IMG/VR virus record: IMGVR_UViG_2531839131_000011
Origin: a virus
Lineage: Duplodnaviria > Heunggongvirae > Uroviricota > Caudoviricetes
Strand: one strand, 5' to 3'
Length of the DNA stretch: 25,579 bases
The notes under the pieces are model-generated. The model was given only the letters and a program-made list of their open reading frames with translations. It ran no database searches and was not told the DNA's origin. Positions 2,055 through 24,163 of the stretch are shown one piece after another. The stretch's first letter is position 1; each line of letters opens with the position of its first letter. Made by a program: the position numbers and the translations under genes.

Positions 2055-3647
2055 TTAAACGCTCGCTACATTATACCAAGTGCCATTTATATACTTTTGA
2101 ACTGGTCTGTAATAAACCCCCGCTATATTATCGGCAGAATTGGACCCTGTATCCTGAACATTAATACCAGATAATACATGACCTGACGGGCACTGGAAAT
2201 TCCATGTTTGCCAGTTGTTCACACCATAATATTGCTGTGAGCCAAGCCGAACATCTTTTACATATCGGGAATCTAAATTACTGAAATCAGACGGTAATAT
2301 CCGCCCAGTGATACTTATTTCTTTTTTGCTCTGTAACGTACCGTTCTGAAAGCGGAACACATGCACACCATTAGCATAAGCATCCAGCACCCCATCACCA
2401 TTTTGTTTAAACCCAGTATCGTTATCTCCTAAAACTATTGAATTTCCCCCCAGGGCATTAGCCGTTCCAATCCCCAGATTTCCGCTAAAAATGGCATTAA
2501 TACCGAATATTGAGTGAGAACAATAAAACCCTCGCCCATTGTTAAAATCCAGAATGGCTTGTGCGTTCGTGCTTTCTGTCGCGGGATTAGTTGCTCCCCA
2601 CTTATATGTTGTTTGACCGACGGTATAATCCTGAGTTGGAACAATAACCGTTAGCCCTTCTTCAGCAGAAACCCGCACAGGAAAAGCCCTGCCTTCAACG
2701 TAAAAAACGCTGCATACATCATCTTCTTTAAGGCTTGTTACAATGGAGTGGATTGCGCGCTCATTAGTCTGATACGTCGAAAAATAACCTGCCGCATATG
2801 AACCATGATCAGTCCAGCCACCAGGCATTACCATTCCATTGAATTCGCAGTTATTCATTGCGTAATCACCAGTGGCAGATGTGGTCGTTATAATCACTCT
2901 GGAAGCCAGCTCGCCAGTGCTGCCTGTGGAACGCCGGAAAATAACTGGATACCACTTTCCACCAACTGCATTAGACGGCGCATTAAATGCGTACTGCCGC
3001 ATTCCTTTTTTCTTATCCACCTCGCCTTTGCTGTAAACATTAATGTTACTCAGGAAGCGATCCTTATCAGGAATATCCGCGCCGTTCTGGTTTTTTTGTA
3101 ATGCGCCAGAAGCCAGATTTACCGTTTCCTGCAAACCGAGGTTTTGGATAAACAGCGGCTTATTGGGAATATCTGCTCCGTTCCGGTCTTTTGCCAGACG
3201 GGCATTGGCATTATCCATCGCAATTTTCACCGCTTTTGCGGTGGCTGCCAGCGTTTCACTGGGGCTGTCAGTGGCACTGGTTAGCTGAACGAGGCCTTTT
3301 TTGTTCAGGCTGGCATCCCAGATATCCAGATTTTCACGTGCTGTACGCTGTGCTGATGCCCCGGCAATTTTAATTTCGCTGAGGTTATTTTTTATCAGCA
3401 GCGCGTTATTGCTCATAATGGCTTTAATGGACAGTGCAAGCTGGTTTAATTTTGTTTTATCCGGTTGAATACCGGCTTCTTCCAGCGTGTTTAATAACTC
3501 CGCCTGCACAATATTAAACCAGTCCATACCGGGCCATGTGATAGCATTATTCCCGTCACCTTCTGAAAACCAGCGAACGATAGCACTACGCTGGGCGGAT
3601 ACGGGCGGCATGACGGTTACGCCGCTGTCGTTATCAATATAAAACAT
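2055..3647 (-). CDS. S: S: tail fibre protein (constant N-terminal part 3152-3647 fused across gix to variable part 2055-3125)
   Basis: 530 aa. Coiled-coil-like N-terminal part, C-terminal receptor-binding-like domain. The gix site lies in frame within it. Start overlaps the upstream stop (TAATG). Confidence 0.85.
3126..3151. other. gix-like Gin/Hin-family crossover site inside the S gene
   Basis: ttcctgcaaaccgaggttttggataa: two inverted 12-bp half-sites around a central 2 bp, matching the gix/hix consensus as I recall it. In the S frame it encodes FIQNLGLQE. Confidence 0.7.
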
Positions 3648-6290: not shown

Positions 6291-7411
6291 GGCGGCGTTT
6301 TCTCCGGGTGTCTGCGATAATAATCTTCAACCAGCGCATCAACGCCATCATTACCATCCCCTCTGGATTTGCGGTCACTTTCAACCGGCACCAGAAAGCC
6401 TTCGCGTGGCGCAAGGCTGACACGGGTTTTCAGCCCGTCCTGGTCATTCAGTATCAGGTTAACTTTGCTGACCAGTAATTCCGTGGTTTTGATGGCATAT
6501 TTCGAGGCATCAATAGTGACCAGCAGGTTCGGCATCCAGAGTTGCCCGTCCCTGCGAGTCCATCCGTCAATTTCAGCCTCAAAGGTGATGGATTTTGCCA
6601 GTCTGCGGCGTTGCTCACGCAGGGCGCGGGCCTGTGCATCCTTCGCCGTAATTTTGCTGTCGGCAATGATGATCATCGGTCTGTAACGGGTTACATCACT
6701 GTCAGTGGCGGTCCCTTTCCGGGAGACGATACTTTTCGCATCAATATCATCACCCTCAGCGCCGTTTGCGCGGGCATAACCCTTGACAATGTATTCGCTG
6801 AACCGGTCACGGAAATCTTCGTCAAAATCCACCGTCAGCAGATTTTTCCCGAGGATCAGCTCATCAGTGACCGTACTGGCAGCCCGGCTGAATACCAGCT
6901 CTCCGGCGGCATTGCTGGTCATCAGTACACCACGTGCGCGGGAGGCCCGCACCAGCGCTTCATAAACCGTTTCTGAATGGTCAAGCGTAAAAGACGGAAA
7001 CGACGCTGCGCTTTCCTTGTCTGACAGTTCCCAGCGAACGGTGACGCCATAAGGGGCGCACAGGTCCCGTGCAATCTGTTCCAGTGTGCGTTTTTTCCAC
7101 TGTCCGCCACGGTAAACGGCAGCACAGTCAATCAGGTCAGCCGTTTTGTCGCGTCCGGCGACAGTGATTTTCATACTGTCAGCGGTCATCTGGCGTCGCC
7201 GTGAATCGATATAACCGGTGCAGACAATCTGCCCGTCGATTTCGAGCGTGAACTTCTTCCCCGGAGCCAGCCCGGATAAATCCGTGCCCGGTGGCACGTT
7301 CACCCCCAGCTCAAAATATCCGGCTACGGATTCAATCGAGCGGGTGACAGAGACTGACGTCCAGCCGGTAAAAAGCCTGCCATCCGTTCGCAGCGTGACG
7401 GTATTACTCAT
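6278..7411 (-). CDS. Baseplate hub protein (Mu gp44-like)
   Basis: 377 aa. ATG at 7411 overlaps the upstream gene by 8 nt. Synteny. Confidence 0.6.
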
Positions 7412-8891
7412 TAATCACCTCAATACTGACGCCACCGGGAACAAACAACGGGTTGCTGATACCGTTCCTGCGGGCCAGCCGTTGCCAGTTCCGGCTGTTT
7501 CCTGTGTAACGGTACAGGGCCACCATTGCAGGCATCGTCTCCGGCAGGCGGTGCGTTTCACTGCCCGCCAGTTGCAGCCCGCGTTTTTCCAGGTCGGCAA
7601 CAACCAGCAGACGCAGTTGTGTAAGCTGAACGCTGTCTGTCGAAAATCCCTGCTCAGATGCCGTCAGAATGACGGTATCCAGTGCAGCCCCCAGCATGGC
7701 GGCTGTTTTTCCGATATCGGACACACTTTCAAATACCGGGGGCGTGGCTGTACCACTGTCTGAAAAGGATACCTGTGAAAAGCCGCCGTCCGGGGTTATG
7801 GCAGTTAACTGTAACTGTCCCTGTGTGACGGTAGCAGATGTGCTGCTGGCCCCGCTGGCTGTGCCGGTTGTGGTGGACGGGGCATCCAGTACAGGTGCAC
7901 GGGCGGCATTATCCCTCCGGCGACTGAAATCCAGTGCCGCAGTCAGTGCCTGGCTGGCAGCTTCTGCCCGGAATGTCTGCGCCGCTGCCAGCATGACGTA
8001 GTTCAGTGTGGCAATATTTTTTTTTGCAACCGGACTGTTGTACGAGGTTGTGATTGCCCCCTGTCTGCCTGCGGTGTCGGCATGGCGACGTTCGAACCGC
8101 TGCGCCAGACGGTTCCAGGTGGAAAATGCTGTCCGGGTATCGCATAACGATGAAACGCCGGACAGCGCCCCCATCAGCGAGGAGGCCAGCATGGCAGGCT
8201 GGTTAATCAGGCTGGTCACAGAGCCTTTCATCGCAGAAAGCGATCCCATCAGACCGCTGACAGTCTGCGTAACCCCCAGATTGTCCACCGCATCACTGAT
8301 ATCATCGATAACACCGGTTACAGCTTCTATCACGGCGGTTGCCGCCGCAGTGCCATCTTTTACGGTCTGCCAGACAGAGGACAGCGTATCTCCCAGAGAA
8401 CCGGTTACAGCAACGGCCTGTGCCGGTACGACTGCACTGGTGTCTGTCTCTGCGTCCGGGGCAGTATCCTGCAACGACGGATAAACGGTAACGGTGAACG
8501 CGTAATAATTCAGTTCATCCGCTTTAGTGCGGCATTCCCATGAATCCACCATGACGTCCACAGTGCCGAAATCAGGATGTACCAGCTCACCGTTACCCGG
8601 AGCATCAAGAGCATCCATCAGCGCACCCGCTTCATCTCTGGCTGTTTCTGCGTTGCTGTTCAGAATGCAGGCGCTGAATGTACGGGAGCGAAGCTTTTTC
8701 CCCAGGTCATTGACGCCTCCGGTATCACGTAACGGGTACTCGCGTTTAACCAGGCGACGTCCGCCAGCCTGTTTTTGCTCCTCGATGACGAGAAACGGCA
8801 CGTTACGGAACGTGCCTTTGCCGGTTGTTTTCCTGCCTCCACCGGTTTTATCCCGGACAGCATTAACGGCATTTAAAGCATCTTCAAACAT
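7404..8891 (-). CDS. DNA circularization protein N-like (Mu gp43-like)
   Basis: 495 aa. ATG at 8891, 4 nt after the tape-measure stop. Synteny with Mu. Confidence 0.5.
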
Positions 8892-8895
8892 GGTT

Positions 8896-10971
8896 TTACC
8901 AGCCTGTAATGTAGTTATCGCCCGCGTAAATATTCAGCCCCATACCATCCTCGGTGACGCGGGAACTGGTCAGACGTAACCCCTCGCCAAGTTCGACGCG
9001 CAGCGAGGCTTCCGCATTGACTTTTTGTTCCTGCGGTTCCTTATCCGTGACCGTCCATTTCTGATACAGGTCGGTTACAAAACCGCCCAGATACTCCCCG
9101 GCGACACTGCCCAGCGTGGCACCGGCAACCGTACCCAGCGGTCCGGCAAGGCTGCCAACGGCACCGCCGAGCCATGCACCGGCTGTACTGCCAATTGCGC
9201 CTGCTTTTTCATGGGTTGACGCCTGCTCATCCATCAGGACGGGGGCAAGCTGGAGTGCCCCCATTACCGGGCCACCCAGACGTGACAACGCACGACCGGC
9301 ACCTTTCCCCATCCAGCCCAGCGCCCCGGCACCTTTTGTCACAACCCGACCGATCGCACTGCCTGCAAGTTTGTTTCCGATACCGGAAAACCACCCGCCA
9401 GCGGCACGCCCGGCATCAGCCAGCTTTCCGACCGCTCCCGTAACCAGTTGCCCGGCAGCACTGCCTGCAAGCCTGCTCAGAAGACCGGATTTACCGGGTA
9501 AAGGTAATGGTGCAGGCCGTGCCGTTACCGGTACGCCGGGTGGGGGTAATGCCAGAACAGGGCGTGGTGCAGGTAATGCCAGCGGCTGTGGCCCGGACAG
9601 CAATAACGGCTGGCGGGGTAACAGGGGCGTCATGCCTTTGCCTTTCCGGGTGCGACCACCACGGCCACCGCTTCCGTAACCGCCGAACCCGTGAGGCCAG
9701 TTAGTGACAAACACACGCTGAATGCCGATACCCTGCAACAGCGTCTCAGACGTCATGGCATCCGGGACCGGCAGACCTGCCTGCCCACGTTTGCGGTTTC
9801 GCATCCAGCGCCACATACGACGCCCGGTTTTAAACGGATAACTGGCAACCTGCCATGAGGGTTTTGCCACGGCCCAGCCTGCTCTCAGGGCTTTATTGGC
9901 AAGCCAGACAGACACCAGAACAGCAGCCAGTTTTTTCAGGCTGACAATATTCTGGTCAACCCATGCCAGCGCATCTTTACCCGGTTTCAGCCAGCGCCAT
10001 AATTCCTGCGCCGCGATTTTTACCTTTCTGAACGTGGTCAGGAATTTCTGACCAATGTTTTCTGCCAGTGCGTCCAGCTCCCCGGATTTATCCGCCGCAT
10101 CGTGCCAGTTAAGCACCCGGCGCATCTCGTTCTTGATTTCTTCAAAGGGGCCGCTGTTTGCCACCTTCGTGCGAAACTCAAGCAGGTTGCCCTCCATCTG
10201 GGCCATCATCCCGTCCCAGGAGTTCATGGCAGCCGCCTGTGCGCCTTCTGACTGCTCCAGCAGGGTCCGGAATACCGTCAGAATGGCTTTCTTGCCCAGC
10301 TTGCCTTTTTCACCCAGCTTACGGATTTTTTTCTCATCCTTACCCGTTGCATCTGCCAGCACCTTGTAAACGTTGATACCGTAACCGGTCAGCAGGTTGG
10401 CGTCCGCCGCCGTGATTTGCTGGCGGGCAAACATCTGTTTGAACTGTAACGAAGCCCCCTGCGCGGTGGGTAAATCCCAGCCATGCATCGCGCCCTGATT
10501 CTGTAGCATGGTGATGAACTGTTTTACCTGGGCGTCAGTCATGCCAAACGCCGTTGATGTGCGGATTTCCTGCAGAACGCCGCCCAGCCCCCAGGTGGTT
10601 TCTTTTGCGTTCTGCTTCGCCCACGCCATCATGGCCTGTGCTCTGGCCTTATCGCCGTGATACAGCGAGTTCATGGCGATAATCTGCTGCTCACGCTGGG
10701 CGGCGGCACCAATAAACAGTTTATTGGCGGTGTAACCCACGCCAGCGATACCCAGCGCCCCGGCTGACAGCATTCGGAATGTACGGGTTGACAGTGAACC
10801 CATTCTGTCAATGGCACCAGAAACGCGCACAACCTCCATACGCAGGGCACGAAGGGAACTTTGTCCGCTACGGGACAGGGCGTTTATCTGGTTCGAATAC
10901 TCGCGGGAACGCCGGGAAAGATTGCCATTAAGATCAATAATGACAGACGCCTTTAAGCGTTTCCCGGTCAT
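8896..10971 (-). CDS. Tail tape measure protein
   Basis: About 692 aa from ATG 10971 (AGGA 7 nt upstream). N-terminal helical region, Pro-rich repeats, Gly/Ala-rich C-terminal half. The ORF-track start at 11064 adds 31 non-protein-like residues and overlaps a promoter-like motif. Confidence 0.75.
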
Positions 10972-11014
10972 AGAGATTTCCTGATTTAACGGTGATATTG
11001 AGAGAGGGTTTTCG

Positions 11015-11055
11015 CCTGCTGGCAGTGCCGGAAAAAGCGGGACAGCGGGAGAGAC
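11015..11055 (-). promoter_or_regulatory. Candidate late promoter upstream of the tape-measure gene (possible C-dependent P promoter)
   Basis: Minus strand CCCGCTGTCCCGC...GCACTGCC in a 144-bp gap, resembling the elements upstream of lys and I. Confidence 0.3.
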
Positions 11056-11115
11056 AAGGCCCATTCCGGGCCACTTTTCAGAATAACGCCAATCGCTGTC
11101 GCCGCTTTCTCAATA

Positions 11116-11550
11116 TCATTCCGGCACCGCAGCCACTCGCCCCCGTTCTTGCGTCAGCGATGCCGCCACAGCCATGTCGTGCATCTCTGTGGCCAGCGAC
11201 AGACGCTGGAAGTCATCGACGGACAGCTTGCGCATCAGCGCCAGCGATAACGGGCCTTTGATGCAGCCCACGCTGGCAATCTGTCGGCGCAGCATTTCCA
11301 GTCCCATCCGGGACGGGGAACTGACCAGCACCGGGCCTTCCTTGCTCATTACCAGCTTTTCAGCCGCCGCCTGGGCATCAATCAGATCGCCTGCGGTCAG
11401 TTCACGCAGTGTCACGTCATACTGCATTTCAGTCTCGTCACCGGTGCCGAACGCCAGGCCGTCTTTCAGTTTCAGGCCACCGGACTGAAGCTCAGCCACA
11501 ATACTGTCACGCAGTTCCTGTGCTTCAGGACTTAAATTCATTTCGTCCAT
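11116..11550 (-). CDS. Tail assembly chaperone (Mu gp41-like)
   Basis: 144 aa, acidic. Sits between tube and tape measure. Good Shine-Dalgarno (AGGGGAAACA) before ATG 11550. Confidence 0.5.
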   Translation of the reverse strand: MDEMNLSPEAQELRDSIVAELQSGGLKLKDGLAFGTGDETEMQYDVTLRELTAGDLIDAQAAAEKLVMSKEGPVLVSSPSRMGLEMLRRQIASVGCIKGPLSLALMRKLSVDDFQRLSLATEMHDMAVAASLTQERGRVAAVPE

Positions 11551-11559
11551 TGTTTCCCC

Positions 11560-11916
11560 TTATGCAATGCGTTTGCTTTTTTTTGCCGTCAGTACCAGCG
11601 AAATTTCGCCGCCGTCGTTTTTCGGTTCATCCGCCTGCCAGGCATTCGCCAGCATCCAGGTTTCACCGGTATCAGCCTGGAATTCGACGGTGATGTTTTC
11701 CCAGTCGATAATTTCATCCAGCCCGATGGGACCGCCCCCCGGAATTTTGCATTCCACTTTTGCGGCACGTGGTTTACCTTTCCAGCCATAAACCCGCGAG
11801 CCGGTCACTTCTTCACGGGTGGTGCCGGAAGGCGTGAAGGAGGCACCTTCCATTGATTCAAGCTCCATGCCATTGACACGGATGAACGCCACCCCCTGAC
11901 GCTGATTTCCAGCCAT
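11560..11916 (-). CDS. M: Tail tube protein
   Basis: 118 aa, immediately downstream of the sheath gene. AAGGAG Shine-Dalgarno. Confidence 0.7.
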   Translation of the reverse strand: MAGNQRQGVAFIRVNGMELESMEGASFTPSGTTREEVTGSRVYGWKGKPRAAKVECKIPGGGPIGLDEIIDWENITVEFQADTGETWMLANAWQADEPKNDGGEISLVLTAKKSKRIA

Positions 11917-23424: not shown

Positions 23425-23618
23425 TATTCTGCTCCACGGCACCAGTGGCAGTAGTTCGCCATCGGCTGCTGTCTCAGCACATCAGGCCGCAGCTCACGAC
23501 CGCAACCGGCACACAATACAGGCGGGTCATACGCCGCCGGGCGGGGAATATCACGGGTATCCCCCTGCCAGAGTTCAGCGAGCAGCAGCGCCAGCGCCCG
23601 GTTCTGGTCTTCGTTCAT
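23424..23618 (-). CDS. C4 zinc-finger protein, TraR/DksA-like (Mu gp24-like)
   Basis: 64 aa with CAGC-x17-CHWC, i.e. Cys-x2-Cys-x17-Cys-x2-Cys. Confidence 0.5.
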   Translation of the reverse strand: MNEDQNRALALLLAELWQGDTRDIPRPAAYDPPVLCAGCGRELRPDVLRQQPMANYCHWCRGAE

Positions 23619-23916
23619 AAATTTCTTTCCTTCGGGTCTCCTGTTCCCGGACTGATGCCTTGTCGCGGTTGCACTGCCCGAGCGCCATCAACAGGTCAGC
23701 ATTCCAGAGAAGGGATGCTCCCCACGTCAGGGGCTGTGGCATGGGCGGAACGGGCGTTGCTTCCGTCAGTTCTGCATCAGTTTCGGGCAGGAGCACCACC
23801 GATGGCACGGGTGCGTTTTTCGAGTTCCCGCAACCTGTCAGCAGCAACGGCAGGCACAGGACGAGTGCTGCAATTGTCACCGGTAATGGCGGTTGTAATT
23901 TTTTGTTTTGCATCAT
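23575..23916 (-). CDS. Outer-membrane spanin (lipoprotein)
   Basis: Tandem ATG at 23916/23913. MMQNKKLQPPLPVTIAALVLCLPLLLTGC is a signal peptide with an L-T-G-C lipobox. Pro-rich mature part. Out of frame with, and overlapping, the inner spanin gene. Confidence 0.55.
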   Translation of the reverse strand: MMQNKKLQPPLPVTIAALVLCLPLLLTGCGNSKNAPVPSVVLLPETDAELTEATPVPPMPQPLTWGASLLWNADLLMALGQCNRDKASVREQETRRKEIYERRPEPGAGAAAR

Positions 23917-24163
23917 GATGTTCTGTCTCGTCTGCCAGCCGTGCGGCACGATTTGCGGCACGGATAGCGGAAAATACCTGCATCGTCTGTTCCTGACCGT
24001 GTAACAACCATTCAGCAGTGTGGCGGGCCTGTTGCTCCGTCTGTAATTCACGGCGCAGCGTCTGGTTATCGTGGCAGGTGCTGTCCAGCCTGTGCCACAA
24101 CACCCCGGACAGAACGGCGGCAAACACGGCAGCCAGCAGTAAACTTTTACTGGCGAAGGTCAT
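23777..24163 (-). CDS. Inner-membrane spanin
   Basis: 128 aa. N-terminal transmembrane segment LLLAAVFAAVLSGVLW, then charged helical periplasmic domain. Starts 17 nt before the lysozyme stop. Confidence 0.6.
   Translation of the reverse strand: MTFASKSLLLAAVFAAVLSGVLWHRLDSTCHDNQTLRRELQTEQQARHTAEWLLHGQEQTMQVFSAIRAANRAARLADETEHHDAKQKITTAITGDNCSTRPVPAVAADRLRELEKRTRAIGGAPARN

What the first reader, a model, noticed from the sequence alone, without database searches (positions are those of the whole stretch)
10972..11115. 144-bp gap upstream of the tape-measure gene with a third CCCGC-type element
The minus strand 11049-11021 reads CCCGCTGTCCCGC TTTTTCCG GCACTGCC, resembling the lys and I elements. 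It sits in the only other sizeable non-coding gap of the tail region, so it may be the third late promoter driving the tail and baseplate genes. It also argues that the tape-measure start is ATG 10971, not the upstream start at 11064. Alternatively the gap could hold a frameshift extension of the chaperone gene, though I found no slippery site.
Basis: inference. Interest (0 to 1): 0.45.

Follow-up and report, generated by a model that had tools for sequence, protein, structure and literature searches.

The report
Mu tail-chaperone frameshift extension, not promoter
The "gap" before the tape-measure gene is not empty and is not a promoter: it encodes the tail end of a second, longer form of the phage Mu tail-assembly chaperone, made when ribosomes slip back two bases at a conserved GGGGGCGA site, which has been known for phage Mu since 2004.

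Summary
The window is a Mu-type phage, 96-97% identical to Escherichia phage Mu, with late genes on the minus strand. The 144 bases between the chaperone stop (11116) and the tape-measure ATG (10971) are almost all coding. Ribosomes slip by -2 at CGGGGGCGA (11145-11137) and read 51 more codons to TAA 10988-10986, 14 nt before the tape-measure start. The product is 188 aa, and its extension is identical to Mu's FS-gp41 (UniProt P0DJY4; GenBank Mu_56, noted as a "verified -2 translational frameshift").

The "CCCGC element" is the codons for LPLSRFFRHC, the most conserved motif of the extension. Relatives keep the peptide but lose the CCCGC repeats through synonymous changes. 82 of 89 related loci keep the octamer in the same frame, and all but one truncated locus show a complete 42-55 codon extension.

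The gap lacks the late-promoter signature (MuC half-site CATAAYCC plus a -10 hexamer). That signature occurs exactly three times in the window: Plys, PI, and the real third promoter PP at 7812-7746, inside gene N. The CCCGC resemblance is within chance.

Already known; low interest.

The parts
11116..11550 (-). Tail assembly chaperone gene (Mu gp41 orthologue), 0-frame product of 144 aa
   Evidence: ORF. Pfam PF23746 Gp41_Mu E=7e-34 and phrog_508 tail assembly chaperone E=1e-46. Corresponds to Mu_41, 23552-23986.
11137..11145 (-). Frameshift site CGG GGG CGA (octamer GGGGGCGA at 11144-11137), where ribosomes move back 2 nt
   Evidence: Located. The octamer is exact and in the same frame in 19 of 22 genome loci and 63 of 67 IMG/VR loci. 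It is the only invariant block in a 90-nt alignment of 17 diverse relatives.
10986..11141 (-). -2 (= +1) frame extension: 51 codons plus TAA (10988-10986). Peptide GEWLRCRNDIEKAATAIGVILKSGPEWALSLPLSRFFRHCQQAKTLSQYHR, the C-terminal part of the 188-aa FS-gp41. If the shift happens after CGA instead, the extension starts at 11138.
   Evidence: Translation. Identical to the Mu extension. The reconstructed Mu fusion equals UniProt P0DJY4. phrog_12783 E=1.8e-29. The third codon position is the most variable in relatives. There is no ATG or GTG in this frame, only TTG 11057 giving 23 aa.
11021..11049 (-).
   Evidence: The motif PL.RL.R is the most conserved part of the extension across Enterobacterales, Aeromonas, Vibrionaceae, Shewanella and Marinomonas.
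10979..10982 (-). Ribosome-binding site AGGA of the tape-measure gene, 7 nt before the ATG
   Evidence: The Mu record annotates the RBS at 24120-24123, the same position.
8896..10971 (-). Tape-measure protein gene (Mu gp42 orthologue), true start ATG 10971
   Evidence: Mu_42 starts at 24131. Mu has an in-frame TAA between the two candidate ATGs.
7746..7812 (-).
   Evidence: 100% identical to Mu 27287-27353, annotated 'late promoter, PMID 2522923'. One of only three perfect matches to CATAAYCC-N22-A-N3-T in the window.

Best explanation
The 144-bp 'gap' is the 3' part of a programmed-frameshift gene.

Most ribosomes translating the gp41-type tail assembly chaperone stop at TGA 11118-11116 and make a 144-aa protein. 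A minority slip back two nucleotides on the G-run of CGG GGG CGA (11145-11137). They then read 51 further codons in the other frame and stop at TAA 10988-10986, 14 nt before the tape-measure start. This gives a 188-aa fusion, FS-gp41.

The function is inferred by analogy with lambda gpG/gpGT. The common N-terminal part would coat the tape-measure protein. The rare C-terminal extension would recruit the tail tube protein so that the tube polymerises around the tape measure. Neither protein would stay in the virion.

The CCCGC...ACTGCC string is simply the codons for the conserved LPLSRFFRHC motif of that extension.

Shown here: the reading frame, the slip octamer, their conservation, and identity with Mu. 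Taken from the literature and database records: that the -2 shift really happens in Mu. Inferred: the roles of the two protein forms.
For: - The window is 96.7% identical to Mu over 10800-11700. The Mu record annotates Mu_56, 'verified -2 translational frameshift in PMID 15469818'.
- The reconstructed product is 188 aa, and its extension equals Mu's.
- The Mu reconstruction is an exact match to UniProt P0DJY4, 'Probable tail assembly protein FS-gp41'.
- 82 of 89 related loci (chaperone identity 37-100%) keep GGGGGCGA in the frame xGG GGG CGA. Where readable, the +1/-2 ORF is 42-55 codons (one locus is cut by its contig end). In the genome set it ends -23 to +14 nt from the tape-measure start. 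In most loci the -1 frame closes after 2-20 codons, at most 39.
- The extension peptides align across orders.
- Variable columns by codon position are 20/13/33 beyond the 0-frame stop.
- The extension hits phrog_12783 at 1.8e-29.
- The extension frame has no usable start codon.
- GGG and CGA are minority codons elsewhere in these genes, at 13% and 6%.
Against: - No experiment on this particular phage. The frameshift was demonstrated for Mu, and I could not read the primary paper.
- The exact slip codon is unsettled. UniProt gives ...ERGGEWL and GenBank gives ...ERGREWL.
- No stimulatory RNA structure was found, so the efficiency determinants are unknown.
- Sequence alone cannot separate a -2 ribosomal shift from a +1 shift or from transcriptional slippage.
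- The function of the extension rests on analogy with lambda.
Confidence: 0.91

Rival explanations
1. One reading: the CCCGC element is a third C-dependent late promoter that drives the tape-measure, tail and baseplate genes.
For: There is some visual similarity to part of Plys and PI, which share a 10-bp match TCCCGCACCT (noted in PMC4461284). In a crude leave-one-out matrix trained on Plys, PI and Pmom, the gap scores about as well as the held-out true PP: rank 64 against 72 of 73,334.
Against: - No match on the minus strand to CATAAYCC-N22-A-N3-T at up to 2 mismatches. The three real promoters are the only perfect hits.
- No TTAT-N6-ATAA within 2 mismatches in the gap.
- No sigma-70-like site.
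- The CCCGC 10-mer sits 10 bp apart relative to the -10 hexamer in Plys and PI, and is absent from PP and Pmom. It is therefore not a shared promoter feature.
- The motif count is within chance.
- Relatives change the CCCGC bases at synonymous positions.
- The literature reports only four late promoters, with PP elsewhere.
Confidence: 0.02
2. The same extension ORF is reached by another route: a +1 ribosomal shift (187-aa product), or RNA polymerase slippage on the G-run, rather than a -2 ribosomal shift.
For: The +1 and -2 shifts lead into the same frame. Naturally 'fused' 4-G genes and 187-aa proteins exist in databases, showing the one-G-shorter version is viable as an ORF.
Against: The GenBank note and a review both state a verified -2 shift in Mu. 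Both curated products are 188 aa, meaning one extra residue as expected for -2, and the 187-aa Mu version is not in the protein collection. From general knowledge, a run of five G is short for efficient transcriptional slippage.
Confidence: 0.05
3. The gap holds an independent small gene ('gp41.5', as annotated in phage D108) that is translated from its own start.
For: D108 annotates a 48-aa CDS named 41.5. PHROGs has a family of such short ORF calls.
Against: The frame has no ATG or GTG and no ribosome-binding site. The only start-like codon is TTG 11057, giving 23 aa. By length (147 nt), the D108 ORF would begin at a CTG codon in the window's sequence (my arithmetic). Conservation begins right at the slip site, with G-E/D in all relatives.
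Confidence: 0.01
4. The gap is the N-terminal part of a longer tape-measure protein that starts at ATG 11064.
For: In this window the tape-measure frame is open from 11109, and ATG 11064 gives a 722-aa ORF.
Against: Mu has TAA in that frame 14 codons before the real ATG. The window differs by a change that is synonymous in the extension frame. There is no ribosome-binding site before 11064. Codon-position variability fits the extension frame. In relatives the tape-measure start lies within -23 to +14 nt of the extension stop.
Confidence: 0.01

Closest known systems
Escherichia phage Mu gp41 / FS-gp41 (Mu_41 / Mu_56; UniProt P0DJY4), the -2 programmed frameshift described by Xu, Hendrix and Duda 2004
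   Same: Same position (tube gene, chaperone, tape measure). 96.7% nucleotide identity. Identical slip site CGGGGGCGA. Identical 51-aa extension. Same stop 14 nt before the tape-measure ATG.
   Different: A few substitutions in the N-terminal chaperone part. One synonymous change (GCT to GCG) removes Mu's TAA in the tape-measure frame and so creates a misleading longer ORF from ATG 11064.
Phage lambda gpG / gpGT and P2 gpE / gpE+E' tail assembly chaperones
   Same: Two overlapping products from one gene placed just before the tape-measure gene. The longer one is made by programmed frameshifting near the 3' end. Neither is in the virion. The fixed ratio matters for tail assembly (PMC5009743). 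There is a weak Pfam link to Phage_TAC_7, 'E, or 41 or 14'.
   Different: Lambda and P2 use a -1 shift on a heptamer, whereas here it is -2 on GGGGGCGA. There is no significant sequence similarity of the extension to anything in Pfam. The function of the Mu extension has not been tested here.
Mu C-dependent late promoters (Plys, PI, PP, Pmom)
   Same: The gap shares only short C-rich words (CCCGC, ACTGC) with the spacer regions of Plys and PI.
   Different: It lacks the MuC dyad or half-site and a correctly spaced -10 hexamer. It is not conserved as DNA.

Membership tests
Frameshifted tail assembly chaperone (Mu gp41/FS-gp41 type) | Gene lies between the tail tube gene and the tape-measure gene | tested here: met
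   ORF order is tube 11560-11916, chaperone 11116-11550, tape measure 8896-10971, all on the minus strand. Same as Mu_40, Mu_41 and Mu_42.
Frameshifted tail assembly chaperone (Mu gp41/FS-gp41 type) | N-terminal domain homologous to Gp41_Mu chaperones | tested here: met
   PF23746 at 116.6 bits (cut-off 27). phrog_508 at 1e-46.
Frameshifted tail assembly chaperone (Mu gp41/FS-gp41 type) | Overlapping second frame, without its own start, open from near the chaperone 3' end to just before the tape-measure start | tested here: met
   The +1/-2 frame is open from 11153 to 10986 and has no ATG or GTG. The same layout is seen in 82 of 89 relatives.
Frameshifted tail assembly chaperone (Mu gp41/FS-gp41 type) | Conserved slip site | tested here: met
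   GGGGGCGA in the frame xGG GGG CGA is the only invariant block. These codons are rare elsewhere in the same genes.
Frameshifted tail assembly chaperone (Mu gp41/FS-gp41 type) | Extension evolves as protein | tested here: met
   Peptide alignment across orders. Third-position excess of 20/13/33. phrog_12783 at 1.8e-29.
Frameshifted tail assembly chaperone (Mu gp41/FS-gp41 type) | Two protein products actually made by a -2 shift, and required for tail assembly | not testable with these tools
   Rests on the Mu record note (PMID 15469818), the review PMC5009743 and UniProt P0DJY4. The primary paper is not held.
Mu C-dependent late promoter | MuC binding site (TTAT-N5-6-ATAA dyad centred at -43.5; invariant half-site CATAAYCC) | tested here: not met
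   No TTAT-N6-ATAA at up to 2 mismatches in 10972-11115. No CATAAYCC-based match on the minus strand. Consensus taken from PMC12867686 and PMC2582627.
Mu C-dependent late promoter | -10 hexamer (A at position 2, T at position 6) 24 nt after the ATAA half-site, and no -35 | tested here: not met
   One search gives three perfect hits, which are Plys, PI and PP only. The sigma-70 scan finds 0 sites in 10700-11700.
Mu C-dependent late promoter | C-dependent transcript 5' end | not testable with these tools
   The literature gives four late promoters. PP is annotated at Mu 27287-27353, which is window 7812-7746.

The most novel reading that the evidence does not exclude
Besides coding for the extension, the C-rich stretch 11049-11021 (or the antisense late-promoter-like match at + strand 11082-11116) might act as a weak internal DNA or RNA signal, for example a minor promoter or pause site that tunes tape-measure expression. 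Nothing here supports this. It is only not strictly excluded without transcript mapping.
Probability: 0.03. Interest if true: 0.35.

Novelty: already known. Interest (0 to 1): 0.08.

Why it matters
The practical value is for annotation. In Mu-type phages the space between the chaperone and tape-measure genes should be annotated as the -2 frameshift product FS-gp41, not as an intergenic regulatory region. The tape-measure gene should start at the ATG preceded by AGGA. The third late promoter should be sought inside gene N.

The comparative survey adds one small point. The octamer GGGGGCGA is kept across Mu-like prophages of several gamma-proteobacterial orders, with no shared downstream RNA structure. 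That is useful for automatic detection of this recoding site.

Tried and rejected
- Position weight matrix from the four Mu late promoters. By construction it scores the true promoters high, and the gap ranks 313 of 51,058. The leave-one-out version is too weak to discriminate: held-out promoters rank 4 to 72, and the gap ranks 64 to 497. I replaced it with the invariant-feature pattern.
- RNA structure downstream of the slip site. The single-sequence fold is not better than shuffles (z = 0.70), and RNAalifold on 17 relatives predicts no pairs.
- The hairpin GGCCCGGAATGGGCC (11072-11058), flagged as terminator-like. It is forced by the codons for GPEWA and shows no compensatory changes.
- Rfam: nothing relevant.
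- Pfam on the extension alone: no hit.
- Literature: neither Xu et al. 2004 nor a second J Bacteriol 1989 late-promoter paper I requested by PMC id was held. Text searches for the slip sequence found nothing relevant.
- Codon counts at the slip site are circular, because loci were selected for having the octamer. Only the background codon frequencies and the 82 of 89 figure are used.

Full report
**What the window is.** A megablast of 10800-11700 finds 14 phage records at 95-97% identity, all Mu-type: Mu, D108, SfMu and Yersinia vB_YpM phages. The whole window aligns to Mu 9564-35027 in reverse orientation. The window's minus strand is therefore Mu's late-gene strand.

The order of ORFs around the finding is:
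- tail tube, 11560-11916;
- chaperone, 11116-11550;
- the 144-bp gap;
- tape measure, 8896-10971.

All lie on the minus strand. This matches Mu_40, Mu_41 and Mu_42.

**Checking the observation.** The 29-mer CCCGCTGTCCCGCTTTTTCCGGCACTGCC is at 11049-11021 as stated. The two candidate ATGs are at 10971 and 11064.

The resemblance to the lys and I elements is not above chance:
- CCCGC-N2-6-CCCGC occurs twice, in the gap and in PI, against 0.69 expected. 14 of 100 shuffles reach that count.
- CCCGC-N5-30-ACTGC occurs four times against 2.5 expected. 26 of 100 shuffles reach that count, and one hit lies inside an unrelated gene.

**What the gap is.** The chaperone frame and the tape-measure frame are the same frame, separated by two stops. 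The +1/-2 frame is open from the G-run CGGGGGCGA (11145-11137) to TAA 10988-10986. Reading 11550-11140 and then stepping back two bases to 11141-10986 gives a 188-aa protein. Its last 51 residues are GEWLRCRNDIEKAATAIGVILKSGPEWALSLPLSRFFRHCQQAKTLSQYHR.

The Mu GenBank record annotates exactly this as Mu_56, a joined CDS 23552..24116, 'verified -2 translational frameshift in PMID 15469818'. The same reconstruction on Mu DNA is an exact match to UniProt P0DJY4, 'Probable tail assembly protein FS-gp41'. The window's extension peptide is identical to Mu's. A review also lists Mu as a case of -2 frameshifting (PMC5009743).

The N-terminal part is a Gp41_Mu chaperone (PF23746, 7e-34). The extension alone matches phrog_12783 at 1.8e-29. 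The extension frame has no ATG or GTG and only a late TTG giving 23 aa, so it can only be reached by recoding.

**Comparative evidence gathered here.** I scanned one genome per species and IMG/VR, using an alignment of chaperone homologues.
[quoted passage not shown] Chaperone identity in these loci goes down to 37%.
- These loci have a +1/-2 ORF of 42-55 codons where it can be read to its stop (one locus is cut by its contig end). In the genome set it ends between -23 and +14 nt of the tape-measure start.
- In most loci the -1 frame closes after 2-20 codons, at most 39.
- The hosts include Enterobacterales, Aeromonas, Vibrio, Aliivibrio, Photobacterium, Enterovibrio, Shewanella and Marinomonas.
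- The extension peptides align. The best conserved motif is PL.RL.R.

In the window that motif is LPLSRFFR. Among 21 distinct enteric-type extension DNAs the peptide LPLSR is kept, while the CCCGC words are broken by synonymous changes (CTT CCG CTA, TCG CGG, TCA AGG and others). Variable columns by codon position are 23/16/37, or 20/13/33 beyond the 0-frame stop. The constraint is therefore on the protein, not on a DNA motif.

**Is there also a promoter?** MuC binds TTAT-N5-6-ATAA, a 16-bp dyad centred at -43.5. Late promoters have a -10 hexamer but no -35, and Mu has four of them (PMC2582627; PMC12867686).

Aligning the four annotated Mu promoters shows the invariant half-site CATAAYCC and a -10 hexamer 24 nt after the ATAA half-site. 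The pattern CATAAYCC-N22-A-N3-T has exactly three perfect matches in the window, all on the minus strand:
- Plys, 24727-24693;
- PI, 17159-17125;
- PP, 7800-7766.

The gap has no minus-strand match even with two mismatches. It has no TTAT-N6-ATAA within two mismatches and no sigma-70-like site. PP, the real third late promoter, is at 7812-7746 inside gene N. It is 100% identical to Mu 27287-27353.

The CCCGC 10-mer shared by Plys and PI is a match already noted in the literature (PMC4461284). It lies 10 bp apart relative to the -10 hexamer in the two promoters and is absent from PP and Pmom. It is not a common promoter feature.

A crude leave-one-out matrix could not discriminate by itself. 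I report that as a limitation.

**Tape-measure start.** ATG 10971 has AGGA 7 nt upstream and corresponds to Mu_42's annotated start. In Mu the tape-measure frame carries TAA 14 codons upstream of this ATG. The window has GAA there, from a change that is synonymous in the extension frame (GCT to GCG). That change is what produces the misleading 722-aa ORF from 11064.

**Mechanism.**
- Shown: frame, slip octamer, conservation.
- From records and literature: a -2 shift in Mu.
- Inferred: the roles of the two forms, by analogy with lambda gpG/gpGT. The shared N-terminal domain would bind the tape-measure protein. The rare extension would recruit the tube protein gp40. Both would be absent from virions, and gp41 was not resolved in the Mu cryo-EM structure (PMC11915804).

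The exact slip codon is unsettled. UniProt has ...ERGGEWL, meaning the peptidyl-tRNA-Gly slips from GGG to GGG. GenBank UIW09302.1 has ...ERGREWL, meaning the shift occurs after CGA is decoded.

No stimulatory RNA structure is evident. The fold z-score is 0.70, and 17 diverse relatives give no consensus pairs. GGG and CGA are minority codons elsewhere in these genes, at 13% and 6%. That is consistent with selection on the nucleotides themselves. The octamer is also constrained by coding in both frames, so this does not isolate the slip signal.

**Verdict.** The finding's sequence is real, but its main interpretation is wrong and its alternative is right. The feature is the already described and annotated Mu gp41/FS-gp41 -2 frameshift. 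Interest is low.

Noticed in passing
window 7746-7812 (-): The true third late promoter PP lies inside gene N (ORF 7404-8891), upstream of gene P. It is 100% identical to Mu's annotated PP.
   Followed up: yes
window 11082-11116 (+), antisense to the late genes: AATAACGCC...CAATAT is a 2-mismatch match to the late-promoter signature, and it ranks 9th in the promoter matrix scan. It is one of 43 comparable background hits, so it is probably chance.
   Followed up: partly
Mu proteins P0036 (UniProt P0DJY4) and P0040 (GenBank UIW09302.1); window slip site 11145-11137: The two curated Mu frameshift products differ at the junction residue...ERGGEWL against ...ERGREWL. Curators place the -2 slip on different codons.
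   Followed up: partly
L009 1901 (Erwinia tracheiphila), L025 1781 (Marinomonas rhodophyticola), L006 1883 / L053 1583 (Kluyvera); proteins P0001, P0002, P0007: Some relatives have GGGGCGA, one G fewer, which fuses the chaperone and the extension in one frame. The Kluyvera copy has a second frameshift further on. These may be real fused genes, decaying prophages or homopolymer assembly errors.
   Followed up: partly
L061 and L062, around 1539: A variant site, (A/G)GGGGCGATAG, has only four G and a stop directly after CGA. A homologous extension is still in the +1 frame.
   Followed up: no
L022 and L064-L092, 2-40 nt after the octamer: In a more distant clade (extension starting GELMPLA...) a hairpin of the type CTGAtGCCG...CGGCgCTCAG begins a few nt after the slip octamer. 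Its arms differ but still pair in L064 (GCCGTT/AACGGC) and L069/L070 (CCCTC/GAGGG). It is absent in the Mu clade, and there is no family-wide consensus.
   Followed up: partly
window 11008-11006 (-), equivalent to Mu 24092-24094: Mu has TAA in the tape-measure frame here, while the window has GAA. The single change is synonymous in the extension frame, and it creates the spurious 722-aa ORF from ATG 11064.
   Followed up: yes
window about 2118-3118: Part of the tail-fibre S gene (ORF 2055-3647, 530 aa against 504 aa in Mu) does not align to Mu by blastn. This is a divergent host-range region.
   Followed up: no
window 11058-11072 (-): The terminator-like hairpin GGCCCGGAATGGGCC is produced by the codons for GPEWA. 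Relatives show no compensatory changes, so it is likely a by-product of coding.
   Followed up: yes
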